A stretch of 64,000 bases of DNA from a virus (IMGVR_UViG_3300033074_001483:21517-85516); one strand, 5' to 3'. Numbered from the stretch's first letter, positions 32,311-54,370 are shown. Numbers and translations are program-made. The notes: generated by a model from the sequence alone, not told the origin.

Positions 32311-32396
32311 TAGATGCCAGTTTTATACTCACTACGAGTCCCTTTCGGAGTTATGGTGAGCCCGGAGGCTCAATTATTGGTTGCAGTGTGCATCTA
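32311..32396 (-). ncRNA. RCAGCWA-helix family RNA (variant ACTGCAA)
   Basis: TAGATGC/GCATCTA closing helix, ACTGCAA, GAAA hairpin, A-rich linker. Confidence 0.6.
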
Positions 32397-32518
32397 TTTC
32401 TAAACACTTAATGTCCGTTTGGGTGTCACCCCACGCTCTTAGCCCGACAATTAGGCGGCTCGGTAGTCCGAAAGTTATGTTGACAACATAACACACTCTT
32501 TAGCACAAGTGAATTGGA

Positions 32519-32629
32519 AATTGTTCTTGGGTTACAGGACTTATTGGCCAATGCCTACTCGCTCTCCATCATTCTAACCGGAGATCATCCCGGCAGAGTA
32601 TCAGCATCACGAGCTTGCTGAGAACAATT
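32519..32629 (-). ncRNA. Possible RCAGCWA-helix family RNA (divergent)
   Basis: 9-bp AATTGTTCT/AGAACAATT closing helix followed by CAGCAA. Confidence 0.45.
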
Positions 32630-32633
32630 AAAT

Positions 32634-32723
32634 TGGTAGCGGAAGTAGGAGTTACACCTACCATAGTTAGCAGTGCTAACGCACGTTATGAGCGTGCTTG
32701 GCGTCTTCCGGCCTGTCCCCGCA
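32634..32723 (-). tRNA. tRNA(CAT) with long variable arm
   Basis: GCACG-CTCATAA-CGTGC; variable hairpin GTTAGC/GCTAAC; T-loop TGTAACT; 1:72 mismatch; CCA. Confidence 0.8.
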
Positions 32724-33170
32724 ATAAATCTCAAAGAACTTTTGTCTGTACGACTGGCATTGAATACCTGTCCGTATCCGATGGCATTTTGCACATCTCA
32801 CCGAACACTTTTCAATCTCCAATCTAATCTTATCCCACGAAAATCCTCTCACAAGCATTGCATACACGGCGTCTTCTTTTTGTGAAGGGTCTTCGTGATC
32901 AAAGTCTAATACTCGTATGTCTGTTTCCCCACAATCTACGCACGGATGTATCATCAAATACTCACACACTTTTTGCTGTGAGTCTGCCAGTCTGCGTTTC
33001 GTTCCTTTGTTTGAACGAGTGATATACTCCCGTCTATTCTGTTTGTAATGCTGTTTTACGTACTTCCCATGACACTCTTTACATTCAGAACAACGAAGAT
33101 TTTTCGCTTTATTTCGGAATGAGAAACACTCATCCTCTTTTGGCTTTTTACAAGTACAACATTCTCTCAT
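32676..33170 (-). CDS. HNH homing endonuclease
   Basis: PCVDCGE.DIRVLDFDH..EIEKC.VRCAKCH; 3' end runs into tRNA(CAT). Confidence 0.88.
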   Translation of the reverse strand: MRECCTCKKPKEDECFSFRNKAKNLRCSECKECHGKYVKQHYKQNRREYITRSNKGTKRRLADSQQKVCEYLMIHPCVDCGETDIRVLDFDHEDPSQKEDAVYAMLVRGFSWDKIRLEIEKCSVRCAKCHRIRTGIQCQSYRQKFFEIYCGDRPEDAKHAHNVR

Positions 33171-33223
33171 ACTCATAAATATCATCGTGGAGTCAAAAAC
33201 ATCAAAGTATTTTGACTACAAAG

Positions 33224-33295
33224 TGGTTGCGGTCGCTGGAATCGAACCAGTCCCTCACCTTATGAGAGTGAGATGCACCATTACAACTCCCCGCA
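33224..33295 (-). tRNA. tRNA(CAT) (Met or Ile2)
   Basis: TCACT-CTCATAA-GGTGA; two acceptor mismatches; CCA. Confidence 0.75.
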
Positions 33296-33322
33296 ATTCA
33301 AAGAACAATCTTACGTTCTGCC

Positions 33323-33354
33323 TATAAATATAGCAGGACTTTTGAAAATGTCAA
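33323..33354 (-). promoter_or_regulatory. Sigma70-like promoter overlapping a TATTTATA motif, followed by boxA-like GTTCTTTGA
   Basis: TTGACA-16-TATATT. Confidence 0.55.
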
Positions 33355-33365
33355 GCCTCCACGAA

Positions 33366-33581
33366 TTATTTTATTCGGTCCTGAATATCCTTGGAAGTCA
33401 AAGATTTCAATGCTTCCCGGTCCTCTTTTTTGAGGCGATTTACCAAATACCCCGGCTTTTTCGGACCAGTACCCAATGCGGCATGAAGAAGCAAACTATC
33501 AAAAACTTCTTGTGCTCGGCGTCGTTGTCGTCTAGTCAGTGATGACATATTTTCGGTATTCCTCGGGAGAAATTTTTTCAA
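33366..33581 (-). CDS. Small hypothetical protein
   Basis: 71 aa ORF downstream of coaD. Confidence 0.4.
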   Translation of the reverse strand: MKKFLPRNTENMSSLTRRQRRRAQEVFDSLLLHAALGTGPKKPGYLVNRLKKEDREALKSLTSKDIQDRIK

Positions 33582-33987
33582 TTGCTCTCAATGCGCTGGA
33601 ACTGATATGTCTCAAATTTGGATTGCAATAAAATGCAACAATCTTGACATAGGGTTCCATACTTCTCAGAAATGCAACGAAATTTTGTTCGTATTCCAAA
33701 TCTGCACCGCTGCGGAGTCCACGAACAAGTGTTACATCGTAATCCAAATTCCTTTCAAGACCCCGAATGTAATCGGAAAGTAATCCCCCGAATTCATCAC
33801 TATCCACATCCATATCTTTCAAGAAATTAACAGGAAGAGGGTGAGTAGAAAGTGGTTTTTCTGGATTAACACCACGAGCAACAATCACTTTGTCAAAAAC
33901 TTTAGTTGCCTGTTTGACAACATCTAAATGCCCAACGTGAAAGGGGTTGAACGAACCGGCGTAAACTCCAACTTTTAGTTTGCTCAT
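33532..33987 (-). CDS. coaD: Phosphopantetheine adenylyltransferase
   Basis: YAGSFNPFHVGH, RGLR..ADLEYE, ISSSALR motifs. Confidence 0.9.
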   Translation of the reverse strand: MSKLKVGVYAGSFNPFHVGHLDVVKQATKVFDKVIVARGVNPEKPLSTHPLPVNFLKDMDVDSDEFGGLLSDYIRGLERNLDYDVTLVRGLRSGADLEYEQNFVAFLRSMEPYVKIVAFYCNPNLRHISSSALRAIEKISPEEYRKYVITD

Positions 33988-34583
33988 ACTTTTACGATTA
34001 GTGCTTTATAACTCGGCAAACCCTTGACTCCCATCAATGGTACAATCTTCTCGGGTTTATCTTTGAAAAATTCATCTGTGGCAACTTTTGGTCCGGGCCA
34101 CAAATCCGTTCCGTAATCATCTATCAATACCACTGCACCTTTTTCCAGATGATTGTATATCAATCTTAATGCCGACTCAGTACTTGTTTTCAAATCACCA
34201 TCAAGATGTGCGAATGAAATCTTTAACGGAATGTCGGATTCGGTCAACTGTTCAAACCATCCTTTATGGATAATTGGGATAGGAACATTATACGATCTGA
34301 ATGTCAATAGAAAAGACTCTACCGAACTTGACATTTCTCCACCATGACCTTCAGCCCTTGGCAATCCCATAAAGCTATCATAAACATGAACGGGACGATT
34401 TGTGAGAGCATTTATCATTCTGGCAGTGTAACCCTCATGACATCCAAACTCAACTACATCACCTTCCAAATGCTCGGTTTCCATGACATAATGGCAAATG
34501 TGTACTATCCGTGAAAAGTCCTGCATTCCAATACAGGACTTCAACATTGTGGCAAGTTTTTGTGATAATGTTTCATCAAACAT
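33984..34583 (-). CDS. TylF/MycF-family O-methyltransferase
   Basis: GDVVEFG..G, YDSFMGLP, FAHLDGD, IDDY motifs. Confidence 0.88.
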   Translation of the reverse strand: MFDETLSQKLATMLKSCIGMQDFSRIVHICHYVMETEHLEGDVVEFGCHEGYTARMINALTNRPVHVYDSFMGLPRAEGHGGEMSSSVESFLLTFRSYNVPIPIIHKGWFEQLTESDIPLKISFAHLDGDLKTSTESALRLIYNHLEKGAVVLIDDYGTDLWPGPKVATDEFFKDKPEKIVPLMGVKGLPSYKALIVKV

Positions 34584-34584
34584 A

Positions 34585-34971
34585 TTACCACCATAGATGT
34601 CGGAACCACTCGGCAAATAATTCTATTCCCGCTTCATAGCGTTTCCAGTTTTTGTCTTGTTCTTCGGCAGTAAGTTTTGAATACTTTTCGTTTTCATGAT
34701 TAAGAGACCAATCAAATGCAAAAATCATTTCGTCCAAGTAATCATCCCATTGTTTAGAAGTCAACTGGCCGGGGAATCCCATATTGACTTCTTTGAAGCG
34801 AATAAGTCGTGGAAGAATAAACTCCGCAATCACCGAATCCAGACCCCAAGTTTCAGCATCCGAAAACCCTTGGGTTTTCAATTGTCTAAAATGCTTTTTG
34901 TATCGTTTGTCGGTTTTCTCAAGGTATAATGGTTCTTTGAGAGACCAACGACTTGTTAGTTTTTTGCTCAT
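34585..34971 (-). CDS. Hypothetical protein
   Basis: 128 aa, translationally coupled in the operon. Confidence 0.55.
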   Translation of the reverse strand: MSKKLTSRWSLKEPLYLEKTDKRYKKHFRQLKTQGFSDAETWGLDSVIAEFILPRLIRFKEVNMGFPGQLTSKQWDDYLDEMIFAFDWSLNHENEKYSKLTAEEQDKNWKRYEAGIELFAEWFRHLWW

Positions 34972-35423
34972 AGTGATGCATATAGACGACGAAATGCTGC
35001 TTCTTCATCCCACGTTCCTCCTGTCAGAACCTCGATACATCTTCCATGTGGGAGTTCAAAATCTGGAACATGATACTTTTCTCTTCCTCGGATTTCTCCT
35101 GTGAAAACATGAATTTCAACAACATCATTTCGTGAACCTTTGAATTCTTCTCGAACATCACGATACGGATTAACTGTTGACACAATGACATCAATTCCTT
35201 GATCTGCTATATGTGCTACAAACCGTTGGAGAGCACGAGTCTGTTCAATACGATATTCTTTGGTGAAATTTTCAGGTTTGTCGTAAGGAACAGCAAAGAT
35301 TTTTCGGAGGTTATCACCATCAAGATGGAGAACTGCTGAACCTTTGGCACGCAATTCAGAAGCGAGTCGTTTTGCCAATGTAGTCTTGCCACAACCGGGT
35401 TGTCCTATAAACCAGTAAATCAT
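34968..35423 (-). CDS. Adenylylsulfate kinase (CysC)-like P-loop kinase
   Basis: WFIGQPGCGKTT, LDGDNLR, VIVSTVNPY..R motifs. Confidence 0.8.
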   Translation of the reverse strand: MIYWFIGQPGCGKTTLAKRLASELRAKGSAVLHLDGDNLRKIFAVPYDKPENFTKEYRIEQTRALQRFVAHIADQGIDVIVSTVNPYRDVREEFKGSRNDVVEIHVFTGEIRGREKYHVPDFELPHGRCIEVLTGGTWDEEAAFRRLYASL

Positions 35424-35465
35424 GCCGTTATTATAGCATGGATACTATTGAAGTCAAGTGGAAAG

Positions 35466-35539
35466 TGGTGGAGCTAAAGGGAATTGAACCCTTATCTTCG
35501 CAGTGCGAGTGCGATGTCCTGCCGTTGAACGACAGCCCC
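35466..35539 (-). tRNA. tRNA-Ala(CGC)
   Basis: TCGCA-CTCGCAC-TGCGA; G3:U70; CCA. Confidence 0.92.
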
Positions 35540-35544
35540 ATTCG

Positions 35545-36225
35545 GGCAACTTGTCAGTCACCCACGATGTTACTCGTTATCCAAACCTATTTCTACGAGC
35601 TGCACGTAGATGCCAGTCTTGACCCTACCTCGGAACCTCGGTCAATCCTATAGCACGTTACTACAACAAAAGCCGCCGTTCCGCAGCGACGTGTCAGTTT
35701 AGAAATTCGGTGCTCATGGTCTGCTTATAGTACTCTGGAGGTCTCGCAGAAGCCCTGACCCAGACACGAGCAAAATATCGTTTGCAGATCGTATCGTCGA
35801 ACGATACGCTGTGCAAACGGAAAAATGGTGAGATGGGCAGTGCAAACTGCTTTCTACAGGGGGGACGGCACCACGTCTGTCCCTTATGGAGTACTCCTTT
35901 CGGGACGCCCATCTCATTCTGTTTTTGTCGCAGCCGTAGCCGCAATTCTGTTCTATCTCTACATTTTTCTCAAGGTCAACCATACGGTTGCCAAGTCCCT
36001 CACGGGATGCCTCAACCCGGGCTTTACAATGGGAAGCACTACCCTTTGCCCTGTTTGAGTTGCTGTTACTTTGTGGTGTTAACGAATGGTTTGCCCACGG
36101 TCAAGAGGGCGTCGGTAAAGACCCATTCTCCCAAACAGCTGCTTTACAGTTGCGAACTTCCTCTGGTTGCTCCTGTTCAGGCGGAACCAGCGTAGAGTCG
36201 CTTACGACAAAATTCTCAAAGAACT
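35545..36225 (-). ncRNA. Large structured ncRNA candidate (GOLLD/ROOL size class)
   Basis: ~680 nt without a credible ORF, many long hairpins, own promoter and boxA-like motif, adjacent to a tRNA. Confidence 0.6.
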
Positions 36226-36231
36226 GGTGGT

Positions 36232-36259
36232 ACGATACCACACTTCGTCAAAATGTCAA
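36232..36259 (-). promoter_or_regulatory. Sigma70-like promoter for the large RNA
   Basis: TTGACA-16-TATCGT with extended -10 TG; GTTCTTTGA at 36216-36224. Confidence 0.6.
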
Positions 36260-36264
36260 CCTTT

Positions 36265-36576
36265 TTATGGGATGACTGCACCTTGCCCCGGTGCTGGAGG
36301 GGGAGTAACCACTGGTGGAGTTACAACTGGAGGCGTAACCACTGGTGGTTGAGTATTGACTCCTGTTTTATTCTCCAAAAATCGTCTTGCTGTATAAGTT
36401 CCACAGAGGACCAGAGTTACATAAACATATGGTTCTGGTACATCGGCAAGTTTGTCCGTTTTGAAAGTGACGTATCCGATAAGTGTCATAAAGAACACCA
36501 TCCATATGAGAAACATCAGTCCTGTGCGGGACATTCTTCCTCGGTGGTCCAAGAGTAGTTCGATTGGTTTTGCCAT
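36265..36576 (-). CDS. Small membrane protein (holin-like topology) with PPVVT repeats
   Basis: Two TM helices; (PPVVT)3 tail. Confidence 0.55.
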   Translation of the reverse strand: MAKPIELLLDHRGRMSRTGLMFLIWMVFFMTLIGYVTFKTDKLADVPEPYVYVTLVLCGTYTARRFLENKTGVNTQPPVVTPPVVTPPVVTPPPAPGQGAVIP

Positions 36577-36689
36577 ATGTGATAAAAGTTGGTGCTGCCT
36601 ATCAGATTCGAACTGATACATTCTACCTTCTCAGGGTAGCGACTCCTTCCAGTTGGTCTAAGGCAGCGTTTGACTATCTATAAATAGTT

Positions 36690-37046
36690 TTAGAACCCCT
36701 GTTCCGACTCACGAAATTTCTTGATGTCTTCTAGCAATCCTTCTCGGTCATCACGGTATTTCTGAATCATGTAGGCAAATCCCTCACGGTCTTCTTCCTC
36801 CACCATTTCTGTAACGAATCTGGCAATGTCTTCGTCGGAGGGTTGCCAGTCAAACTCTTCACAAACAGCGGCGATTTTGGTTCCCATCGGGGTCATGTTG
36901 AATGCACATTCTACAAGACCAAGCTTTTGAATTTGGTCAAGGTAATGGATAATCATCATTACCGAAATGGTTTGGGTTGGTTCTTCAAACACACCCTCTA
37001 ACTTGAGGCGTTCGAGAATTGCCTTTACTGTTTCGTCAATTGTCAT
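36690..37046 (-). CDS. Hypothetical acidic protein
   Basis: 118 aa ORF with own promoter. Confidence 0.55.
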   Translation of the reverse strand: MTIDETVKAILERLKLEGVFEEPTQTISVMMIIHYLDQIQKLGLVECAFNMTPMGTKIAAVCEEFDWQPSDEDIARFVTEMVEEEDREGFAYMIQKYRDDREGLLEDIKKFRESEQGF

Positions 37047-37100
37047 AGGAAATTTTACCTTTCGGGAAGACTATAACATACATCTTCCCGAAAGTCAAGG

Positions 37101-37472
37101 TTAAAACCAGAGCCAATCGGCGTCCTTCTTGAAGGTGGGCATTACAGCATCGTAGTCGCCTTGGCGGATTTTCGCCAAGACACGACGCTCTTGTGCCTTG
37201 CGTTGTTTCCACAGAGTTTTACGGAAGTGTTTGGGAGCGTGATTCCAGTGTTTGTGAGTCCCATTTTCGATGGCACGGGCTTGACGCTCAATGCTTTCGA
37301 AATGACTTTTGATTTGTTCCAAAGTATCCCACAATCGCACCCAGTAGTCACGGGGAGCAACGTCAATGCGATACGGACAGAGAGTCTCGTAGGGATGATT
37401 TTGGTTACGGATACGATTCCAGTGTTTGACACGGAAGCGTCGGTTGCGAATGTACTTGTTTTCAGTTCTCAT
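37101..37472 (-). CDS. Hypothetical basic protein
   Basis: 123 aa ORF. Confidence 0.5.
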   Translation of the reverse strand: MRTENKYIRNRRFRVKHWNRIRNQNHPYETLCPYRIDVAPRDYWVRLWDTLEQIKSHFESIERQARAIENGTHKHWNHAPKHFRKTLWKQRKAQERRVLAKIRQGDYDAVMPTFKKDADWLWF

Positions 37473-37551
37473 TGGTTATGCGAACCTACACCTTTATGAT
37501 GTAAGTCACATACCAAAGAACATGAGTTGAGTTGTCATATACATAAGAAAT

Positions 37552-37629
37552 TGGTCGGAGTGATAGGATTTGAACCTACGACCTTCTGCTCCCAAAGCAG
37601 ACGCACTAGCCAAGCTGTGCTACACTCCG
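37552..37629 (-). tRNA. tRNA-Pro(TGG)
   Basis: TCTGC-TTTGGGA-GCAGA; CCA. Confidence 0.95.
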
Positions 37630-37642
37630 TTGTCTATAAATA

Positions 37643-37990
37643 TCAGTACGGTCTTGGTTTAGTTTTACCATCAACAATTGTTAAAGTTCCTTTTATTTTT
37701 GGCAATTCTTCAACTAATCCACCTACCGAGACGAGCGATTCGTTTTCGATTTTCGCTTTCTCTTGCAAATTCTTCTCGTCACGAGCAATGGTTTCGTCGG
37801 CGAGTTTCTTGTATTCGTCGGGGAGAGACTCTCCAACAGCTTTAAGAACGTCTCTAGCGAACTCTGCGTCCTTCTGGAGCCTTTCTTTAACAAACTCTTG
37901 GGCGAGTTCGACCTTTTTGCGTTGCACTTCTTGTGCGATCCAAACGTTCTTGGCATTCAGTTTTCTCTTTGCTGATCTTAATCCACCCAT
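37643..37990 (-). CDS. Hypothetical coiled-coil protein
   Basis: Start moved to MGGLRS to avoid overlap with the upstream gene. Confidence 0.45.
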   Translation of the reverse strand: MGGLRSAKRKLNAKNVWIAQEVQRKKVELAQEFVKERLQKDAEFARDVLKAVGESLPDEYKKLADETIARDEKNLQEKAKIENESLVSVGGLVEELPKIKGTLTIVDGKTKPRPY

Positions 37991-38006
37991 AACTAATTCT
38001 TTCTCA

Positions 38007-38339: not shown

Positions 38340-38343
38340 AAAT

Positions 38344-38417
38344 TGGTGGGCCATGATGGTTACGCTCCATCGTCTCATCAGTGTCAGTGATGAATTCTAC
38401 TATTAAACTAACAGCCC
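38344..38417 (-). tRNA. tRNA-Val(GAC)
   Basis: CATCA-CTGACAC-TGATG; T-loop AGCGTAA; CCA. Confidence 0.9.
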
Positions 38418-38489
38418 GTATTCCGTGATTAAAGCGGGTTCACGGAAAAAGAAACCATATCGCACGCCATAAGGCTGCGAGGAGCGACA

Positions 38490-38861: not shown

Positions 38862-38973
38862 CTCCCAATTTTCAACAAATTCTTTTCTCTTAACCGCCCG
38901 ATACTTCGGGAGATTAACAGGCTTTAGATTCCCTTGTCCTTCATTGCGTTTGGCATTGTCATAGCATCCTCCG

Positions 38974-39159: not shown

Positions 39160-39173
39160 GGGAGAACTCTACA

Positions 39174-47049: not shown

Positions 47050-47103
47050 GGTAATACATATCGTCGGAGGACTTGAAACTACGGAAAAGTTTCAAGTCAA
47101 AGA

Positions 47104-47181
47104 TGGTCTGTGGGGTGAGATTTGAACTCACATTTTTCTTGGCTCCAGACCAAGTACCATCCCAAGTTAGGCGACCCACAG
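47104..47181 (-). tRNA. tRNA-Pro(TGG), atypical C33/A37
   Basis: CTTGG-TCTGGAG-CCAAG; C1:G72, A73; CCA. Confidence 0.8.
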
Positions 47182-47193
47182 AGTTTGTTGTTT

Positions 47194-47364
47194 TTACTTA
47201 CTATACACTACCGAACGTGCTTTACGTGCGAGCAGTGCCTTTTCCTCGTTGGAAAGTCTCCGACCAGATTTCTTGATCTTCTCAACTTCCTTCAGGAAGT
47301 CCTCAGTTGCTTGCTGGTTTCCAAGTCCTAGATGATACTGGACCAGCTTTTCGTTTTCATTCAT
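47194..47364 (-). CDS. Small hypothetical protein
   Basis: Hand translation MNENEKLVQYHLGLGNQQATEDFL (56 aa). Confidence 0.5.
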   Translation of the reverse strand: MNENEKLVQYHLGLGNQQATEDFLKEVEKIKKSGRRLSNEEKALLARKARSVVYSK

Positions 47365-47367
47365 ATT

Positions 47368-48736: not shown

Positions 48737-48738
48737 AT

Positions 48739-48822
48739 TGGTGCTACTGATAGGAGTCGAACCTACATGGTGTTACCCGCTTGCCCCTCAAGCAAGTGTG
48801 TCTGCCATTCCACCACAGTAGC
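48739..48822 (-). tRNA. tRNA-Leu(GAG)
   Basis: CTTGC-TTGAGGG-GCAAG; normal type II; CCA. Confidence 0.93.
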
Positions 48823-48828
48823 ATAAAT

Positions 48829-48933
48829 TGGCGAGATGCCGAACCCTTTCGGGCTTGCCGGGGTTTGAACCCAGCTCACTGTTCATTTTCAATATGAATG
48901 TTTTTCCTTTTGGGATTTGCTGCAAGCATCTCG
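48829..48933 (-). ncRNA. RCAGCWA-helix family RNA with anticodon-like and T arms, CCA end
   Basis: CGAGATGC/GCATCTCG + CCA; GCAGCAA; TTCAT/ATGAA arm; T arm TTCAAAC loop; GAAA hairpin. Confidence 0.75.
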
Positions 48934-48939
48934 TAAATT

Positions 48940-49028
48940 TGGTGCAGCCGACAGGATTCGAACCTGCGTGGGAAATGGTTATCCATCAGCTTAAAAGGCT
49001 GTTGCCTCGGCCACTTGGCTACGACTGC
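48940..49028 (-). tRNA. tRNA(TTT) (Lys anticodon) on a type II-like scaffold
   Basis: Loop CT-TTT-AA; Leu/Tyr-type D arm; ~18-nt variable region; A73; CCA. Confidence 0.85.
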
Positions 49029-49435
49029 ATTTGACGTTTTTTCCACTCCAACTTTCTATGACAATTGGAGCAAATAACATCGCATTTTTCAATTTCAGCA
49101 AGAAGTTTCTCTTTTGGCCATCCAGCATAAACAGCCTTGCTGATTTCCATCTCTTTTGTAGATGGGTCTCGATGATGAAAATCCAATGTAGCAATATGAA
49201 TTTCTGGGCATAGCAAACATTTGGATTTTGCTTTGATGTCATTGACTAAATCCAGAAGCTCCGCTTTTTTGCTCTTGATATATGCCTTGTGTTTTTGTTT
49301 ATTTGAGGCATAGTATTTCTTGGATGATTTGCGATTACACTCTCGGCACACGCCCTGCAATCCATCTTTTTTGGATGCTTTGCGATTAAACTCGGAGAGC
49401 GGTTTTTTCTTTTTACAAGTATTACATCGTTTCAT
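49019..49435 (-). CDS. HNH homing endonuclease
   Basis: CLLCPE..LDFHH..EIEKCDVICSNCH; TAG stop inside the tRNA. Confidence 0.88.
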   Translation of the reverse strand: MKRCNTCKKKKPLSEFNRKASKKDGLQGVCRECNRKSSKKYYASNKQKHKAYIKSKKAELLDLVNDIKAKSKCLLCPEIHIATLDFHHRDPSTKEMEISKAVYAGWPKEKLLAEIEKCDVICSNCHRKLEWKKRQMQS

Positions 49436-49487
49436 ATACTCATAAATAGTGATTTTAACTCTCAAAAGAGTTAAAATCCAAAAGAAC

Positions 49488-49622
49488 TAGATACGGTTTT
49501 TTTCTTCCCTTGCGGGACCGACGTTCTACATTAAACTACAGCCCCGATATGTGGCGGGGCCGACTGGGTTTGTCCAGTACTTGCGGTTTGACATAAGAAT
49601 GTTTTCTTGCTGTCCGTATCTA
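49488..49622 (-). ncRNA. Circularly permuted tRNA-like RNA (Asp-like) in an RCAGCWA helix, 135 nt
   Basis: 3' half + GCCA, 6-nt linker, then 5' half; 9-bp closing helix. Confidence 0.8.
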
Positions 49623-49630
49623 AATTGAAT

Positions 49631-49860
49631 GGGAAAGATAGTGTGCTATTACGCCAAAGACCTCAGACCGTCGCTTTCTCTTTCTCTTTGATTAGAATGA
49701 TTTGCTGCTTCTGCCTGTACCTCTGACGAGATACGAATGCGATACTTGCGATTAGGTGTGCCTCTATCCCTATGTTTCCACGGGGCGAAAAAAGACAAAC
49801 ATTTGCACTCAGTCACTCATTATAGGATTGCTGCCTCTAAGCCAACCTCCTAACTTTCCT
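49631..49860 (-). ncRNA. 23S rRNA L11-binding (H43-H44) domain mimic with internal insertion
   Basis: GGAGGTTGGCTTAGAGGCAGCAATCCT..GAGTG and GCGTAATAGCACACT, closed by GGAAAG/CTTTCC. Confidence 0.75.
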
Positions 49861-49865
49861 CAAAT

Positions 49866-49942
49866 TGGTAGCCCCACTCGGCATCGAACCGAGTTTCTCT
49901 GCTTGAAAAACAGAAGTCCTTACCAGACTAGACGATGGGGCC
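49866..49942 (-). tRNA. tRNA-Glu(TTC), copy 2
   Basis: TCTGT-TTTTCAA-GCAGA; CCA. Confidence 0.9.
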
Positions 49943-49950
49943 ATAAAAGC

Positions 49951-50085
49951 AAGATGCGTTTTTTTGTAGGCTTTCGCCGACTCCTGCTCTACTCACTGAG
50001 CTACCCAGCCATATGGTGGCTGAGGGTGGATTTGCACACACCGACACGGAGTTCCTCATACATTTTGTTTAGCTGTACGCATCTT
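49951..50085 (-). ncRNA. Circularly permuted tRNA-like RNA (Phe-derived) in an RCAGCWA helix, 135 nt
   Basis: 3' half + ACCA, 3-nt linker TAT, then 5' half; 9-bp closing helix. Confidence 0.82.
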
Positions 50086-50089
50086 AAAG

Positions 50090-50164
50090 TGGCCCGGACA
50101 ATCGGTAACGCTCCGATCTCTTCAGTTTTTCAGACTGACGCTAATCTATCTCAGCTATGTCCGG
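50090..50164 (-). tRNA. tRNA-Phe(GAA)
   Basis: TCAGT-CTGAAAA-ACTGA; T-loop AGCGTTA; G73; CCA. Confidence 0.85.
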
Positions 50165-50229
50165 AAATATCAATAGGCATCATCACGGGTACTCTTGAAT
50201 AGGTATTTGATAACCATTGATATAGAAAT

Positions 50230-50305
50230 TGGTCCCGCCCCCCGGTATCGAGCCGGGTTGTCTCGCTCTTCAGGCGAGTGCATTGACCTCAATTGCTTGA
50301 GCGGG
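50230..50305 (-). tRNA. tRNA-Phe(GAA), copy 2
   Basis: CTCGC-CTGAAGA-GCGAG; CCA. Confidence 0.85.
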
Positions 50306-50416
50306 GAAAACGAATAGCTGCTACTACCGCACCGCAATTGTCAGCACGGATTTGCCTTATTTAACCGATCCTATCGGCACTAGACGTGCTGTACAACCTA
50401 GTACAACACGACAAAT

Positions 50417-50491
50417 TGGTACACCCATCAGGACTCGAACCCGAAACTCTACGTTCGAAGCGTAGAATGATTTCCATTTCACCATGAGTGC
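50417..50491 (-). tRNA. tRNA-Arg(TCG)
   Basis: CTACG-CTTCGAA-CGTAG; CCA. Confidence 0.92.
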
Positions 50492-50759
50492 ATTGAAGAC
50501 GCTTATTTTAGAGCGGCTAACGTCGTCCCGCCCCAACATGCGTCACGATTTACAACAAAAATGTTGTATTTCGTGAAACCGATGATCATCGTTGTTTATC
50601 GGTGTTGAAAAGACACCCGCAGAACGGGTGTCCAACTTTTTCCACCATTGGTGGATAAGATATTGCTCGCAGGGCACCCAAGATACGAGTGTCTTCTTTA
50701 CTCCGTCTGTGCTGACTGGAAGTACTACTCCACTTGGCCTGTAGCAAATTGTTTAAGAA

Positions 50760-50835
50760 TGGCTCCTCCCGCAGGACTTGAACCTGCAACCTACTGGTTA
50801 ACAGCCAGTCGCTACTACCATTGAGCTAGAGAGGA
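50760..50835 (-). tRNA. tRNA-Asn(GTT)
   Basis: ACTGG-CTGTTAA-CCAGT; CCA. Confidence 0.95.
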
Positions 50836-50843
50836 ATGTAAAT

Positions 50844-50939
50844 TGGCTCTCGGGGATGGACTCGAACCACCATACGGGCTATCACGCCCGATTGCACGGC
50901 ATTAACAGTGCCGCCACTTACCAATTAGTGTACCCGAGA
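50844..50939 (-). tRNA. tRNA-Asn(GTT) with long variable arm
   Basis: CGGCA-CTGTTAA-TGCCG; variable hairpin CGGGC/GCCCG; G73; CCA. Confidence 0.85.
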
Positions 50940-50940
50940 A

Positions 50941-51103
50941 TGGCTCCAACAACGAGACTCGAACTCGCACATCCAGCTCAAATTGCCGGAATGCTTCCTA
51001 CTAGAAATGCGGAGTGTTTTCATGCTTACTTCATCATCCTTATTACGTAATTCGGGATGCCTTCATCCATTACTTCTCCGACTAGCGATTACATCATGCT
51101 GGA
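50941..51103 (-). ncRNA. Oversized tRNA-like RNA (163 nt)
   Basis: 7-bp acceptor TCCAGCA/TGTTGGA + GCCA; canonical T arm; ~115-nt core with CTAG and CGGAG/CTCCG helices. Confidence 0.75.
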
Positions 51104-51111
51104 ATTGAAAG

Positions 51112-51201
51112 TGGTGCCAGAATTTGGATTTGAACCAATACATACCTGTGGTTTATTGCGGCAAACATCTTGATGAAAAGCTAGATGTCTTTTCATTCTG
51201 G
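51112..51201 (-). ncRNA. tRNA-like RNA (90 nt) without canonical D or anticodon arms
   Basis: GCCAGAA/TTCTGGC + ACCA; TTCAAAT T-loop; 8-bp AGACATCT/AGATGTTT arm. Confidence 0.65.
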
Positions 51202-51207
51202 CGTAAA

Positions 51208-51285
51208 GTGGTGGGGTAGGGAGAATCGAACTCCCAACCGCTTGTGTGTAGGACAAGCACTCTTCCGTGTTGAGATTACCACCCC
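51208..51285 (-). tRNA. tRNA-Val(TAC), copy 2 (C33)
   Basis: CTTGT-CCTACAC-ACAAG; CCA. Confidence 0.8.
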
Positions 51286-51348
51286 GAAGAACTTGGCTGA
51301 TTTTCTTGACTCATTTAAGGTGTCCCTAAACACCACCGAGTTCAAAAA

Positions 51349-51433
51349 TGGTGGGCGGGATACCTCGTCATTATTTAGACAAAATCACAAGTAGAATCCT
51401 CAGATTCAGTTGTATGTCTATCAGACGCCGCCC
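51349..51433 (-). ncRNA. CCA-terminated irregular hairpin RNA
   Basis: GGGCGG/CCGCCC + ACCA; nested TAGACA/TGTCTA and GAATC/GATTC stems. Confidence 0.45.
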
Positions 51434-51439
51434 ATAAAT

Positions 51440-51523
51440 TGGTGGGAGCGCAAGGAATCGAACCTTGTACCTATGCGGGTTAGACGGGTTACAGCCGCCC
51501 GAGGCCCATGCCACTTCACTCCC
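51440..51523 (-). tRNA. tRNA-Tyr(GTA)
   Basis: GGCGG-CTGTAAC-CCGTC; variable arm; CCA. Confidence 0.85.
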
Positions 51524-51884
51524 AAACATCCATATACACACCACCATTTGTATCATCAATGATTTCGGTAGCGTGATATTTTTTTGCAAGCTCCATCAGA
51601 GAATCTGACTGAACTTTAGAAGGTCTTTTTCCTTTGCGAGTATTGAAGTGAACTCCATTAACTCCAAGATAACCGAAAATTGAAACTCTTATCCAACCCA
51701 AATCGTACATCGCACCATAAACATCTTCGGGTGCTTTGCCGAATTGAGTCATTGAAAGATATTGTGCTGCCCAAGGCGCATGACCTTCACGAGGAACACG
51801 GGTGATTTTTCCATCGGGGTCCATCCAAATGAAAATCTCTTGAATGTGCTCTGCTTCACGCAATAATAATTTGAGCTTTATCAT
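51516..51884 (-). CDS. Hypothetical protein
   Basis: 122 aa; stop overlaps the tRNA-Tyr 5' end. Confidence 0.55.
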   Translation of the reverse strand: MIKLKLLLREAEHIQEIFIWMDPDGKITRVPREGHAPWAAQYLSMTQFGKAPEDVYGAMYDLGWIRVSIFGYLGVNGVHFNTRKGKRPSKVQSDSLMELAKKYHATEIIDDTNGGVYMDVWE

Positions 51885-52204
51885 CGGTCCTTGCGTTCAA
51901 TGTCATCCATTCCCATGATGACTGGTTTCACACCTTCAAGTAATTTGGCAACCATTTGAAGTTGAACCAGTGCTCCACGAGTATTGGGTAACGGACCATG
52001 AAGACGTGGAGAATAAAGAGAAGGAAAATCCATCATCTCATTGATGACATCTTCAAGAGCAGAAATCATTTTGAACCAAGGTTCACCAGTCATTGTTCTG
52101 GTAGAAATACCATCATGAAGATGCTCAAGATTTACTCTTCCCTCTGCGAGAAGAGCTTTTTGTACTTCTTCCTTGATTAGTGCCTTGAGTTGTTCTGGAT
52201 TCAT
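51881..52204 (-). CDS. Hypothetical protein
   Basis: 107 aa; TATTTATA 3 nt before the ATG. Confidence 0.55.
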   Translation of the reverse strand: MNPEQLKALIKEEVQKALLAEGRVNLEHLHDGISTRTMTGEPWFKMISALEDVINEMMDFPSLYSPRLHGPLPNTRGALVQLQMVAKLLEGVKPVIMGMDDIERKDR

Positions 52205-52234
52205 ATCTATAAATATGACTCAGATTGCCAAAAG

Positions 52235-52309
52235 TGGCTGGGGCAGAAGGAGTCGAACCCTCACTAGCTGGGTAACAACCAGTCGTGCTACCATTGACAC
52301 TACACCCCA
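52235..52309 (-). tRNA. tRNA-Asn(GTT), copy 3
   Basis: Loop TT-GTT-AC; U1:A72, G73; CCA. Confidence 0.88.
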
Positions 52310-52566
52310 ATAAATCACTTATTACTACCAACTTCCTTCTCAAGTTCGCTGGCACGAGATTCCAATGCCAAACGTTGAGCGGCGACGAGTTCGCCAGTAG
52401 CGAGTTTCTTACGACATCTCTTCAAACGATTGCGCTTTCTTCCGATAATGTGTGCTGCATTCATATACTTTTTCCTTTTGAAATTGGTGCGTTCTCTCCC
52501 GCCGCCAAGCTTCCATCCCCGCTGTACTGGCGGTTAGGGATTGCAGGGTGCTTTACCTGTTGAATC

Positions 52567-52651
52567 TGGTGCCCAAGGACGGATTCGAACCGACAAAAGA
52601 TAGGACGTTTTAAGTGTCCCGGTTGTACCAGCTTCCCTTATCCACTTGGGC
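52567..52651 (-). tRNA. tRNA-Leu(TAA), enlarged D-loop, short variable region
   Basis: Loop CT-TAA-AA; CCA. Confidence 0.83.
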
Positions 52652-52656
52652 GAAAT

Positions 52657-52743
52657 TGGTGCGCCGTGATGGAGTCGAACCACCCGAGCCTTAAAGACAA
52701 CAGATTTACAGTCTGTCCCGCTACCCCTACGGTATAACGACGC
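52657..52743 (-). tRNA. tRNA-Tyr(GTA), copy 2
   Basis: ACAGA-CTGTAAA-TCTGT; variable arm; CCA. Confidence 0.93.
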
Positions 52744-52847
52744 ATGATGATAAATAGTGTATGGGGATGGGGATTCTCCAACATTTTCGTGGTGGTCCCG
52801 AGCTAACGGGGTCACGATATTCTGTAGTTTGAATTACCCATACAAAT

Positions 52848-52920
52848 TGGTCCTCCAGAGGAGACTTGAACTCCTATACTGCGCTCATCAGGCACAGGGA
52901 CTACATTATCTTACCGGAGG
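52848..52920 (-). tRNA. tRNA-Ile(GAT) with G37
   Basis: TGTGC-CTGATGA-GCGCA; CCA. Confidence 0.8.
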
Positions 52921-52924
52921 AAAT

Positions 52925-52999
52925 TGGTAGCCCATGTCGGTGCTGCCCCGACGTTTTTAGATTGAGAATCTAATGTCCTAGCTGTTAGACGAATGGGCC
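52925..52999 (-). tRNA. tRNA-Glu(CTC)
   Basis: TTAGA-TTCTCAA-TCTAA; T-loop GGCAGCA; CCA. Confidence 0.88.
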
Positions 53000-53079
53000 A
53001 AAACGGCGTACTCAGGGGTTTCACGAGCGTTCCACAAGTTACGTACGATACCTTGTGTCTATCCCTTTCTGCTACAAAA

Positions 53080-53154
53080 TGGTGCTGCACCCGAGAGTCG
53101 CACTCGGAATTCAACCTTCGCAGGGTCGTGTGATATCTATTTCACCAGCGCAGC
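53080..53154 (-). tRNA. tRNA-Arg(GCG)
   Basis: CGACC-CTGCGAA-GGTTG; CCA. Confidence 0.88.
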
Positions 53155-53161
53155 GTGGTTT

Positions 53162-53224
53162 TGGTGTAAGAAATTGGTTTGAAGCTGTTCACATCTTGAC
53201 AAGATGCTATTATTTTCTTACCCA
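53162..53224 (-). ncRNA. Armless mini-tRNA-like RNA of the RCAGCWA family (Asp anticodon loop, ACCA end)
   Basis: GTAAGAAA/TTTCTTAC + ACCA; GCATC-TTGTCAA-GATGT then GA-ACAGC. Confidence 0.6.
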
Positions 53225-53228
53225 AAAT

Positions 53229-53313
53229 TGGTACACTCGGAGAGACTTGAACTCTCATATAGCTTTCGCTCTTGGTTCGTAGCCAAGTGCCAATCCAGTT
53301 TGACGACGAGTGC
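53229..53313 (-). tRNA. tRNA-Arg(ACG) with extra variable hairpin
   Basis: CTTGG-CTACGAA-CCAAG; AGC-GAAA-GCT; CCA. Confidence 0.85.
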
Positions 53314-53374
53314 ATAAATTTGCGAGGTTCTTCCCCTCGCCGTTCCCAATCTTTCGATCAGACTAGGAACAAAT

Positions 53375-53450
53375 TGGCTCCCTCTGCACGAATCGAACAT
53401 GCGCTTCCGAGTTCAAAGCTCGGGTTGCTACCATTACAAACCAAGAGGGA
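53375..53450 (-). tRNA. tRNA-Gln(TTG), copy 2
   Basis: CCGAG-CTTTGAA-CTCGG; CCA. Confidence 0.88.
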
Positions 53451-53455
53451 ATGAG

Positions 53456-53506
53456 TGCCTGCCTACAGGCTTAGCGGTCTTATTGGTCGCCTACGACCAT
53501 AACGGT
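53456..53506 (-). repeat. GTAGGC double-hairpin element, copy 2
   Basis: Matches 44713..44763. Confidence 0.75.
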
Positions 53507-53513
53507 TTTAGAT

Positions 53514-53587
53514 TGGTCGTAGTACGTGGTACTGCCCCACGGTCTAGCGATTATCAGTCGCTTGCTCTACTTTTGAGCTATACTACG
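53514..53587 (-). tRNA. tRNA-Ile(GAT)
   Basis: AGCGA-CTGATAA-TCGCT; T-loop GGCAGTA; CCA. Confidence 0.9.
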
Positions 53588-53980
53588 TTTGCTTTGGAGA
53601 TATAAAGCTCCTTCTCGCATTCTTTTTCTACCTTCGTGAGAAGCATTTTTTACTCCCCACGTTTCTGTTTGAGTATGACAGTTGGGACAAATCATTCTCA
53701 AATTTTCACGGCGGTTATCTTTTTTGTTTCCGTTGATGTGGTCTATTTGAAGACGTAGTGGTTTTTTGTTCCACTCCATTCCTTGTCCACATTCTCCACA
53801 AACCTGTGGAAAGTTTTCATATATCCACCGCCTCATTTGTTTATTCATTGTAGAACCAAGAACAAGACGTTGACTTATGGTATAATCACCACGGCATTTG
53901 TTAGAACAAAATTTTCCACGAGTTTGACTTGGGCGGAATTCAAACTGTTTCTTACAGAATTGGCAGATTGCTTCTTGCAT
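53567..53980 (-). CDS. HNH homing endonuclease
   Basis: CGECG..LQIDHINGNKKDNRRENLRMICPNCHTQT; stop inside tRNA-Ile. Confidence 0.9.
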   Translation of the reverse strand: MQEAICQFCKKQFEFRPSQTRGKFCSNKCRGDYTISQRLVLGSTMNKQMRRWIYENFPQVCGECGQGMEWNKKPLRLQIDHINGNKKDNRRENLRMICPNCHTQTETWGVKNASHEGRKRMREGALYLQSKRSIAQK

Positions 53981-54031
53981 ACCAATACATATTAGACTCC
54001 TACCTCAAACACATAGAAGTCTAACGTAAAG

Positions 54032-54106
54032 TGGCCCTCCATACGAGACTCGCACTCGTTACTTGATCGTGACAGGATCATATGATACCTCATTCAACAA
54101 TGGAGG
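54032..54106 (-). tRNA. tRNA-Asp(GTC), copy 2
   Basis: TGATC-CTGTCAC-GATCA; G73; CCA. Confidence 0.88.
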
Positions 54107-54109
54107 AAA

Positions 54110-54183
54110 TGGCGGCCCAACGGGGTTACGCTCCCCGGACTTCCGATAGACAGTCGGTTAGGTTACTATTACTTTACTGGGCC
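54110..54183 (-). tRNA. tRNA-Asp(GTC), copy 3 (U37)
   Basis: Loop CT-GTC-TA; G73; CCA. Confidence 0.8.
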
Positions 54184-54187
54184 ATAC

Positions 54188-54246
54188 GAGATACATTTTC
54201 TTTGTTTGCTTAACAGGCAAGTAGAATTGGTTGCTGTGAGTATCTC
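54188..54246 (-). ncRNA. RCAGCWA mini-RNA with Asn anticodon stem-loop
   Basis: GAGATAC/GTATCTC; ACAGCAA; TTGC-CTGTTAA-GCAA. Confidence 0.72.
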
Positions 54247-54316
54247 AAAAATCGCCGTGTCCCACAAGATAGTGAGATGATCGCTCACGAATTGCGAGCA
54301 CGGACTAAAAAGGACT

Positions 54317-54370
54317 AGGTGCTGTTTTTTCATTTTACAGATGAATGATTTTTGCTTGCTGCAAGCACCT
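54317..54370 (-). ncRNA. RCAGCWA mini-RNA with Tyr anticodon stem-loop
   Basis: AGGTGCT/AGCACCT; GCAGCAA; TTCAT-CTGTAAA-ATGAA. Confidence 0.72.

What the first reader, a model, noticed from the sequence alone, without database searches (positions are those of the whole stretch)
32311..54370. Family of 7-8 small RNAs sharing an RAGAURC-N1-2-RCAGCWA helix fused to different tRNA parts
Seen: between tRNA genes, the same module recurs on the minus strand: a 7-9 bp helix whose 5' strand is usually AGAT(G/A)C, then (A/G)CAGC(A/T)A, a variable cargo, often a GNRA hairpin and an A-rich linker, then the complementary strand. Copies: 32311-32396, 32519-32629 (divergent), 48829-48933, 49488-49622, 49951-50085, 53162-53224 (topology permuted), 54188-54246 and 54317-54370. 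Stems vary with pairing kept. Cargo ranges from a lone anticodon stem-loop to whole permuted tRNAs. Known: bacterial Y RNAs (YrlA type) couple a Ro60/Rsr-binding terminal helix to a tRNA-like module. Inference: a protein-docking handle (possibly for a Ro60/TROVE protein) carrying interchangeable tRNA-mimic modules, i.e. a modular RNA decoy or repair-adaptor system. No TROVE or RtcB gene is visible in this window.
Basis: partly seen in the sequence, partly recalled or inferred. Interest (0 to 1): 0.92.

Follow-up and report, generated by a model that had tools for sequence, protein, structure and literature searches.

The report
Y-RNA-like handle RNAs carrying tRNA parts
Between the tRNA genes of this large phage lie six clear and two probable genes for small RNAs that join one conserved "handle" to different tRNA pieces. 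The handle belongs to a widespread, uncatalogued phage RNA family that travels with a Ro60-shaped protein, so these are most likely a new variant of Ro60/Y-RNA particles.

Summary
Six copies are firm (32311-32396, 48832-48933, 49487-49623, 49950-50086, 54187-54247, 54315-54372, all minus strand). Two are probable (32519-32629 with a different helix; 53162-53224 circularly permuted). Each is a terminal helix followed by (R)CAGCWA, a tRNA-derived cargo and an A-rich return strand, and most lie within about 10 nt of a neighbouring tRNA gene.

The family recurs in dozens of unrelated large phage contigs, always in tRNA arrays on the tRNA strand, with a covarying helix. No Rfam family matches it.

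Pfam TROVE is absent from 27 handle-bearing phage records. A DUF2828/DUF7788 protein is present in all 10 near-complete ones. Its model superposes on Ro60 over the whole protein (Z 23). Starting from that protein instead, 62 of 79 loci carry same-strand handles, about half of them within 1 kb upstream of the gene.

This contig is a 24% fragment and lacks the gene. A complete 365-kb relative has it. RtcB is not generally linked (1 of 27).

Binding and function remain inferred. This is a new variant of a known kind (YrlA-type Y RNAs). This scan has already flagged the same family on at least 28 other genomes.

The parts
32311..32396 (-). Handle RNA copy 1. Helix TAGATGC/GCATCTA, core ACTGCAA. 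Cargo is a closed acceptor-like microhelix followed by ACCA, then a GAAA hairpin. It ends 4 nt (GTAT) before tRNA-Ala(TGC).
   Evidence: Sequence; fold; scan; model R1 25.8 bits, E 0.011.
32519..32629 (-). Probable divergent copy 2. A 9-bp helix AATTGTTCT/AGAACAATT is followed directly by CAGCAA. Cargo is a long irregular hairpin. It starts right after the CCA-ATTT of the upstream CAU tRNA.
   Evidence: Sequence; fold; scan. Not found by model R1. Other helix sequences are normal for the family: only 22 of 127 have AGAU.
48832..48933 (-). Copy 3. Helix CGAGATGCT/GGCATCTCG, core GCAGCAA. Then a CC-CAAAA-GG element, an anticodon hairpin (loop ATTGAAA, UGA), a T arm (TTCAAAC), a GAAA hairpin and the 3' helix strand followed by CCA. 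It lies between tRNA-Lys(TTT) and tRNA-Leu(GAG).
   Evidence: R1 19.1 bits. Same-architecture copies occur in relative G019 (L153:1424-1526) and in L130:4383-4484.
49487..49623 (-). Copy 4. A 10-bp helix TTAGATACGG/CCGTATCTAG, core ACAGCAA. Cargo is a circularly permuted tRNA-Asp-like body: ...TGTCAA, anticodon-stem 3' strand, T arm, acceptor 3' strand, GCCA, 6-nt linker, acceptor 5' strand, D arm, anticodon-stem 5' strand. Then a GCAA hairpin and an A-rich linker.
   Evidence: The re-permuted sequence folds as a cloverleaf, but ARAGORN rejects it. The counterpart in relative G004 (L155:7052-7166) keeps TTATGTCAA and the CCCGCAAGGGAA hairpin but lacks an acceptor stem.
49950..50086 (-). Copy 5. 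A 10-bp helix TAAGATGCGT/ACGCATCTTG, core ACAGCTA. Cargo is a permuted tRNA body (anticodon-loop remnant TGAGGA, ACCA, TAT linker), then a GAAA hairpin and an A-rich linker. It lies between a tRNA (50093-50164) and tRNA-Glu(TTC).
   Evidence: cloverleaf on re-permutation.
53162..53224 (-). Probable permuted copy 6. The handle strands form a closed hairpin (GCATCTT-GTC-AAGATGT) followed by GA-ACAGCTT. An outer 10-bp helix GGGTAAGAAA/TTTCTTACAC forms the termini. It lies between two tRNA-Arg genes.
   Evidence: Sequence; fold. Not scored by R1; the last core base differs (T instead of A).
54187..54247 (-). Copy 7. Helix TGAGATAC/GTATCTCG, core ACAGCAA. Cargo is only an anticodon hairpin, TTGC-CTGTTAA-GCAA (GUU, Asn-type loop), then an A-rich linker. 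It ends 4 nt (GTAT) before a tRNA-like gene.
   Evidence: R1 50.7 bits (seed). 94% identical over 33 nt to the copy in relative G004. The loop is identical to that of tRNA-Asn 50760-50835 while the stem differs.
54315..54372 (-). Copy 8. Helix TTAGGTGCT/AGCACCTAG (a compensated A-U to G-C change in the AGAU box), core GCAGCAA. Cargo is an anticodon hairpin, TTCAT-CTGTAAA-ATGAA (GUA, Tyr-type loop). It starts 3 nt after tRNA-Pro(TGG).
   Evidence: R1 59 bits (seed); the loop equals that of tRNA-Tyr 52657-52743.

Best explanation
**What these are.** They are genes for small non-coding RNAs of a widespread phage family that I call ACAGCAA-handle RNAs. They are a Y-RNA-like class.

**How each RNA is made (inferred).** Each is transcribed as part of the polycistronic tRNA array. 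It is released by the same processing that frees its tRNA neighbours. Its 5' and 3' ends pair into a 7-10 bp helix in the slot of a tRNA.

**The handle (shown by comparison).** The terminal helix and the single-stranded box (R)CAGCWA that follows it form a constant handle.

**The partner (shown by linkage and fold only).** The handle is most likely the docking site of a ring-shaped Ro60-like protein (Pfam DUF2828 plus DUF7788: a HEAT-repeat ring plus a vWA/MIDAS domain). This phage probably encodes that protein in the roughly 75% of its genome that is not on this contig.

**The cargo (shown).** The variable part displays tRNA pieces. There is an anticodon hairpin with an authentic isoacceptor loop, an anticodon arm plus T arm, a whole permuted tRNA body with its anticodon loop opened by the handle, or an acceptor microhelix with ACCA.

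**Function (inferred).** By analogy with Ro60/Y-RNA particles, the handle holds the ring and the tRNA-like part acts as bait or tether. It would bring the ring, and any exonuclease it recruits, to factors or RNAs that recognise particular tRNA parts. Or it would soak such factors up. Either would serve the contest over tRNAs during infection.
For: **Real family**
- 4 strict hits against 0.09 expected in the window.
- A specific pattern gives 35 stretches in IMG/VR. I estimate about 2 by chance, from information content and an assumed collection size of about 90 Gb.
- Positions left free in that pattern pair in 22 of 25 and 21 of 25 cases.
- Helix covariation score 0.352 against 0.130 in shuffles, 0 of 500 reaching it, and it collapses when the partner is slid.
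- 75 pattern hits in 26 records against 3 for the reversed control, same-strand and clustered.

**tRNA-slot placement**
- Copies lie in tRNA arrays on the tRNA strand, mostly 2-10 nt from their neighbours (window).

**Partner**
- PF11443 is present in 14 of 27 records and 10 of 10 near-complete ones, often 0.3-3 kb from a handle. It is absent from 14 control genomes.
- Its base rate in cultivated phages is 710 of 50,697.
- Starting from the protein: ACAGCAA occurs 405 times on the gene strand against 89 on the other strand. Handles number 147 in 62 of 79 loci against 19 in 16. 71 of the 147 lie within 1 kb upstream of the gene.
- Fold: pLDDT 85. The top 13 Foldseek hits are all Ro60. VIA-align gives Z 23.4, rmsd 4.0, 417 residues, spanning the whole protein, against Z about 11 for vWA-only hits. 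DxSxS is invariant.

**Named phages**
- wV8 has three handles in its tRNA array, which begins about 170 nt after the gene.
- LeBron has three handles after its 'RNA-binding protein' gp53. The middle one hits Rfam YrlA at 39.8 bits.

**Kinship**
- G019, G004, G016 and G002 share a 57-60% identical baseplate protein with this phage. The complete G019 carries the gene.
Against: - No DUF2828 or TROVE gene lies on this 85.5-kb contig. For this phage the partner is inferred from relatives.
- In the relative G019 the gene lies about 130 kb from the handles, so linkage there is only co-occurrence in one genome.
- The handle lacks the GNCGAAN0-1G Ro-binding motif of bacterial YrlA (PMC4201824). No copy in the window reaches any Rfam family at E <= 5.
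- Binding is not shown. A host protein, RNase P or RNA tertiary structure could equally explain the conserved handle.
- 17 of 79 DUF2828 loci showed no handle within 10 kb under my strict criteria.
- Nothing in the sequence says what the particle does.
Confidence: 0.68

Rival explanations
1. **Unconventional tRNA genes.** The two 135-nt copies would be permuted tRNA genes. Their ends are cut and joined in the anticodon loop to give decoding tRNA-Asp(GUC) and a GAG-anticodon tRNA. The small copies would be arm-less tRNAs that receive CCA after processing.
For: - Re-permuted copies 4 and 5 fold as complete cloverleaves with 7-nt loops, U33, and NCCA after a 7-bp acceptor stem.
- Copy 3 ends in G-CCA like the phage's tRNAs.
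- All copies occupy tRNA slots.
- The phage has many other non-standard tRNAs (note e1-5870603).
Against: - The same handle carries cargo that cannot be a tRNA: lone hairpins, and closed acceptor stems without CCA (L130:1647-1777 and L130:5587-5723). The G004 counterpart of copy 4 has no acceptor stem at all.
- Most copies end in GTT or GTA rather than CCA.
- No bulge-helix-bulge motif can be drawn at the junctions (by eye).
- A phage RtcB ligase is present in only 1 of 27 records.
- ARAGORN rejects the re-permuted sequences.
- The helix core AGAU/AUCU stays the same whatever anticodon is carried, unlike real acceptor stems.
Confidence: 0.07
2. **Protein-free or host-protein decoys.** The handle would be only a stabilising clamp and processing signal. 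The RNAs would act alone as sponges for host anticodon nucleases, tRNA-modifying enzymes or synthetases. The link to DUF2828 would reflect shared residence in tRNA/RNA-metabolism gene neighbourhoods.
For: - Loops match the phage's own isoacceptor loops exactly while the stems differ.
- The partner gene is far from the handles in G019, G005 and G001.
- Nothing on this contig encodes a partner.
Against: - A mere clamp would not keep ACAGCAA invariant across phages of mycobacteria, enterobacteria and uncultured hosts.
- The strand-specific pile-up of handles within 1 kb upstream of DUF2828 genes and the 10 of 10 co-occurrence are hard to explain by neighbourhood alone.
Confidence: 0.15
3. **DNA-level repeats.** These would be miniature inverted-repeat elements or protein-binding palindromes that happen to lie in the tRNA array, not RNAs.
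For: The flanks are inverted repeats with a conserved core, AGATRC/GYATCT.
Against: - The variable helix positions change in a compensatory way, including G-U pairs, as expected for RNA rather than for terminal repeats bound by one protein.
- Strand bias is strict, matching the tRNA strand.
- The cargo is tRNA-like RNA structure.
- One member scores as YrlA in Rfam.
Confidence: 0.02

Closest known systems
YrlA-type bacterial and phage Y RNAs bound by Ro60/Rsr (Rfam RF02553; Chen et al. 2014, PMC4201824)
   Same: - A terminal 5'/3' helix next to a short conserved single-stranded box.
- An attached tRNA-like domain in permuted order: T arm, acceptor stem closed by a loop, D arm.
- Genes beside a Ro60-fold protein on the same strand.
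- M. smegmatis YrlA even has a 7-bp acceptor stem that is cut by RNase P and receives CCA, which recalls copies 4 and 5.
- One LeBron member of the present family scores 39.8 bits on RF02553.
   Different: - The box is ACAGCAA, not GNCGAAN0-1G.
- The partner is the DUF2828/DUF7788 branch, not Pfam TROVE.
- Several copies per genome are scattered through tRNA arrays rather than one or two beside the gene.
- The cargo is often only an anticodon hairpin with a real isoacceptor loop, or an anticodon loop opened by the handle.
- No window copy reaches RF02553 even at E 5.
Thermus phage phiLo Ro60 with Yrl1/Yrl2 (PMC12135203; PDB 9KOP, 9L5Y)
   Same: - A phage-encoded Ro60 ring with phage-encoded Y-like RNAs upstream of the gene.
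- The RNAs have a 5'-3' stem flanking an internal bulge with a short conserved motif.
- That paper reports in-vitro assembly of a ternary complex with host PNPase (gel shift).
   Different: - The motif there is CGAA.
- No tRNA parts are reported.
- There are two RNAs only.
- The protein is only about 15% identical to the DUF2828 model (Z 15.7).
Circularly permuted tRNA genes of red algae and some archaea
   Same: Copies 4 and 5 have the order 3' half, NCCA, short linker, 5' half, and they re-permute into cloverleaves.
   Different: - There is no bulge-helix-bulge splice motif.
- The ends are held by the family handle, which also carries non-tRNA cargo.
- Counterparts in related phages lack acceptor stems or CCA.
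T4 stable RNAs C and D in the tRNA cluster
   Same: Small stable RNAs of unknown role, encoded inside a phage tRNA cluster.
   Different: Neither has a handle helix followed by ACAGCAA.

Membership tests
YrlA / bacterial Y RNA (RF02553) | Score at or above the Rfam gathering threshold (69 bits) | tested here: not met
   No RF02553 match at E <= 5 anywhere in 30000-58000. A LeBron member of the handle family scores 39.8 bits.
YrlA / bacterial Y RNA (RF02553) | GNCGAAN0-1G Ro-binding motif near the 5' end (PMC4201824) | tested here: not met
   The conserved box is (R)CAGCWA. The only GGCGAAAG in the copies is the GNRA hairpin of copy 5.
YrlA / bacterial Y RNA (RF02553) | Terminal helix formed by the 5' and 3' ends, conserved and covarying | tested here: met
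YrlA / bacterial Y RNA (RF02553) | tRNA-like domain with T arm, closed acceptor stem and D arm | tested here: met
   Copies 4 and 5 have it. Copy 3 has a T arm only. Copies 7 and 8 have an anticodon hairpin only.
YrlA / bacterial Y RNA (RF02553) | Gene within about 4 kb of a Ro60 ortholog on the same strand | tested here: not met
   There is no TROVE or DUF2828 gene on the whole 85.5-kb contig. For the family elsewhere the feature is met with a DUF2828-type Ro60 fold: 62 of 79 loci have a same-strand handle within 10 kb of the gene, and 86 of 147 handles lie within 1 kb of it.
YrlA / bacterial Y RNA (RF02553) | Physical binding to the Ro60 protein | not testable with these tools
   Needs gel shift, RIP or cryo-EM.
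ACAGCAA-handle RNAs (uncatalogued family defined in this scan) | A 7-10 bp terminal helix followed within 0-3 nt by (R)CAGCWA, then cargo, then an A-rich return strand | tested here: met
   Six copies are clear and two are variant.
ACAGCAA-handle RNAs (uncatalogued family defined in this scan) | Located in a tRNA array on the tRNA strand | tested here: met
Ro60 fold (for the DUF2828/DUF7788 partner in relative G019) | HEAT-repeat ring plus C-terminal vWA domain with a MIDAS motif | tested here: met
   Model pLDDT 85. Z 23.4 to 2I91/1YVR over residues 41-499. Invariant D329, S331, S333. Pfam TROVE itself does not match, and there is no sequence-level PDB hit.
tRNA (RF00005) | Cloverleaf recognised by tRNA models in the genomic order | tested here: not met
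   None of the eight copies is called by ARAGORN or by RF00005. Re-permuted copies 4 and 5 are still rejected by ARAGORN.
Permuted tRNA genes (algal/archaeal type) | Bulge-helix-bulge motif at the junction for the splicing endonuclease | tested here: inconclusive
   I could not draw a BHB at the ends of copies 4 and 5 (by eye). No dedicated tool was available.

The most novel reading that the evidence does not exclude
The handle RNAs are interchangeable adaptors that program a phage Ro60-like ring by anticodon identity. Each copy would direct the particle, and a recruited exonuclease or other enzyme, to one class of tRNA-recognising host factor such as an anticodon nuclease, or to one class of damaged tRNA. 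That would make it a modular RNA-guided system for defending or policing the tRNA pool during infection.
Probability: 0.25. Interest if true: 0.85.

Novelty: new variant of a known kind. Interest (0 to 1): 0.6.

Why it matters
Ro60/Y-RNA particles are known from animals, about 5% of bacteria and a few phages, and the purpose of their tRNA-like modules is still unclear.

Here the same architecture appears in a much larger protein branch. DUF2828 homologues occur in 710 cultivated phages, including Felix O1-like, Listeria, Staphylococcus, Campylobacter and mycobacterial phages.

Its RNA partners make the tRNA connection explicit. They carry real anticodon loops of named isoacceptors, swapped from copy to copy. 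That gives a testable handle on what Y-like RNAs do, and it points to a role in the phage-host conflict over tRNAs.

It also matters for annotation. These elements fill "empty" spacers in phage tRNA arrays, and some can be mistaken for split or permuted tRNA genes.

Tried and rejected
- **Rfam.** At gathering and at E <= 5 it gives only tRNA-type and noise hits at the copies.
- **DNA similarity to cultivated phages.** It found only tRNA-level matches.
- **First protein-based search for relatives.** It found nothing.
- **First loose IMG/VR pattern.** It was mostly chance hits and had to be filtered.
- **Pfam TROVE.** 0 of 27.
- **RtcB.** 1 of 27.
- **T4 rnaC and rnaD.** Neither has the handle.
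- **Small self-cleaving ribozyme cores** (hammerhead, hairpin, twister, pistol). I looked for them by eye in the handle and saw none, and Rfam found none.
- **Single-sequence AlphaFold model.** It was useless (pLDDT 37). The alignment-based model worked.
- **Sequence-level PDB searches with the DUF2828 protein.** They found nothing.
- **ARAGORN.** It does not accept the re-permuted copies 4 and 5.
- **BLAST of the eight copies against all fetched loci.** Only copy 7 matched, to its G004 counterpart.
- **Candidate at 47068-47329.** An 11-bp complement plus CAGCAA, rejected because it encloses a small ORF and tRNA-Pro.
- **Model R1.** It is weak on large-cargo copies, so I relied on a helix-plus-core scanner whose background is about 7 per 85 kb at its loosest setting.

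Full report
**Setting.** The window is bases 21517-85516 of an 85.5-kb IMG/VR virus record that CheckV rates 24% complete. It carries tail and baseplate genes of a myovirus. It also carries a 27-kb minus-strand array of about 46 tRNA genes, which generally end in CCA followed by ATTT, interspersed with HNH genes. No cultivated phage is close at the DNA level.

- The strict motif AGATRY-N0-5-RCAGCWA occurs four times on the minus strand, against 0.09 expected.
- A scan for (R)CWGCWA preceded by a helix strand whose complement lies downstream recovers six copies with 7-10 bp helices.
- At its loosest setting that scanner finds about 7 hits per shuffled contig. The listed copies stand out by helix length, the AGAU box and the A-rich return strand.
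- Reading the sequences confirms the described cargo. There are lone anticodon hairpins with loops CTGTTAA and CTGTAAA, and an anticodon arm plus T arm plus GAAA hairpin. There are also two permuted tRNA bodies and an acceptor-like microhelix with ACCA.
- The copy at 32519-32629 has another helix sequence but the same helix-CAGCAA junction.
- The copy at 53162-53224 has the two handle strands closed into a hairpin and the cargo helix open. This is a circular permutation of the module.
- Most copies sit 3-10 nt from a neighbouring tRNA gene.

**Is it a family?** Yes.
- A loose pattern scan of IMG/VR gave many chance hits but also unmistakable relatives.
- A specific pattern (AAGATRC, ACAGCAA, ATCTTGTT) gave 35 stretches. 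I estimate about 2 by chance, from information content and an assumed collection size of about 90 Gb.
- The helix positions that this pattern left free pair in 22 of 25 and 21 of 25 distinct sequences.
- An alignment of 22 small copies shows five helix pairs with changes on both sides. Its covariation score is reached by 0 of 500 shuffles and collapses when the partner column is slid. The rows were chosen for a paired helix, so one search is the cleaner test.
- In 26 records the 5' handle pattern occurs 75 times, against 3 for the reversed control. The hits are clustered and on one strand.
- In every array examined the copies lie among tRNA genes on the tRNA strand.
- Cargo types recur across phages. 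They include anticodon hairpins of many identities and the arrangement of copy 3. They also include tRNA bodies opened at the anticodon loop, and one tRNA body opened at the variable region with a closed acceptor stem.
- Rfam has no family for them.

**Who is the partner?** Pfam TROVE gave 0 of 27 handle-bearing records. Earlier notes of this scan named a DUF2828/vWA protein, and I tested that lead independently.
- PF11443 is present in 14 of 27 records and in all 10 that are at least 90% complete. It is often a few hundred bases from a handle, and it is in none of 14 control genomes.
- Its base rate among cultivated phages is 710 of 50,697.
- I then retrieved 79 viral loci by the protein alone.
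  - ACAGCAA occurs 405 times on the gene's strand and 89 times on the other strand.
  - Helix-plus-ACAGCAA handles number 147 in 62 loci, against 19 in 16.
  - 71 of the 147 lie within 1 kb upstream of the gene.
- The protein of the complete relative G019 (519 aa, DUF2828 plus DUF7788) has an invariant DxSxS motif.
- With a 46-sequence alignment it gives a confident model (pLDDT 85).
- Its 13 best Foldseek matches are all Ro60 structures.
- VIA-align gives Z 23.4, rmsd 4.0 Å over 417 residues spanning the whole chain. vWA-only matches give about Z 11.

**Named phages tie this to the literature.**
- In Felixounavirus wV8 the gene is annotated 'RNA-binding protein' and the tRNA array begins about 170 nt downstream of it. 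Three handles with helix GACCGT or GACCAA plus (A/T)CAGCAA lie in that array, and one has a T arm, a closed acceptor stem and a D arm.
- In mycobacteriophage LeBron three handles follow gp53. The middle one is a sub-threshold Rfam YrlA hit of 39.8 bits.
- Chen et al. 2014 described YrlA RNAs next to Ro60 genes in 254 bacteria and 22 phages, with a GNCGAAN0-1G motif and a tRNA-like domain.
- A 2025 paper showed that Thermus phage phiLo Ro60 binds two Y-like RNAs with a CGAA motif and assembles with host PNPase.
- None of these papers mentions ACAGCAA, DUF2828 or anticodon hairpins. No paper in the library links DUF2828 to RNA.
- Only 22 of 127 protein-linked handles have the AGAU helix. The window therefore holds one sub-type, and ACAGCAA is the hallmark of the family.

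**This phage.**
- Its contig has no DUF2828, TROVE or RtcB gene, but three quarters of the genome are missing.
- G019 (365 kb, complete), G004, G016 and G002 share a 57-60% identical baseplate protein with it.
- G019 and G004 have counterparts of copies 3, 4 and 7.
- G019 carries the Ro60-like gene about 130 kb from its handles, followed by an AAA ATPase gene.
- I therefore infer, but cannot show, that this phage encodes the partner elsewhere.

**Permuted tRNAs or tRNA mimics?**
- Re-permuted, copies 4 and 5 fold as full cloverleaves, and they carry NCCA.
- The G004 counterpart of copy 4 keeps the TTATGTCAA strand and the GCAA hairpin but has no acceptor stem.
- Other phages close the acceptor stem with a tetraloop and have no CCA.
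- ARAGORN rejects the re-permuted sequences.
- A phage RtcB is rare in these genomes.
- The precedent of M. smegmatis YrlA, which is cut by RNase P and receives CCA, fits better than a split-gene reading.

**Mechanism.**
- Shown: a constant, covarying handle; tRNA-slot placement; tRNA-derived cargo with authentic isoacceptor loops on unrelated stems; and genomic linkage to a Ro60-fold protein.
- Inferred: release by tRNA processing; docking of the handle on the ring; and use of the tRNA part as bait or tether in the conflict over tRNAs.

**Verdict.** This is a new variant of a known kind. This scan has met the same family before on at least 28 other genomes.

Noticed in passing
window 54107-54181 (-): A tRNA-like gene directly after copy 7. 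It has acceptor stem GGCCCA/TGGGCC followed by G-CCA, an anticodon hairpin CCGA-CTGTCTA-TCGG (GUC) and a T-like arm. A 19-nt A-rich linker stands where the D arm should be. Neither ARAGORN nor Rfam calls it.
   Followed up: no
window 54248-54314 (-): The spacer between copies 8 and 7 contains a nested hairpin (CCGTG...CTCGC-AATTC-GTGAG...CACGG) of unknown meaning.
   Followed up: no
window 49019-49465 (-) and 53567-53980 (-): Small ORFs inside the tRNA array. 53567-53980 matches the HNH endonuclease families. 49019-49465 has a Cys-rich HNH-like motif by eye but no Pfam hit.
   Followed up: partly
window 47068-47329 (-): An 11-bp long-range complement (AGGACTTGGAA / TTTCAAGTCCT) brackets a small ORF and tRNA-Pro(TGG). 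I rejected it as a handle copy, but the pairing is unexpectedly long.
   Followed up: partly
G009:C1:109541-113516 (L154, L164): In this complete 133-kb phage the Ro60-like gene, at least three handle RNAs and an RtcB ligase gene lie side by side. This mirrors the Salmonella rsr-yrlBA-rtcBA layout. It was the only RtcB among the 27 records.
   Followed up: partly
L176:11661-12668 and 13118-13552 (relative G019): The Ro60-like gene is followed by an AAA ATPase gene and, 1.5 kb further on, by a small RF-1-domain protein that resembles a peptidyl-tRNA hydrolase or ArfB.
   Followed up: no
L152:4814-4888 and L155:14060-14135 (relatives G019, G004): ARAGORN calls CTA-anticodon (amber-reading) tRNAs in the arrays of both relatives. 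L123 carries a handle RNA whose hairpin loop reads CTTCAAA (UCA, opal-reading).
   Followed up: no
L130 (G011, 9.3-kb contig): Six handle-type RNAs of four cargo types (one with a different helix, GAGATCA) and the Ro60-like gene are packed into one 9-kb piece. This is a compact example of the whole system.
   Followed up: partly
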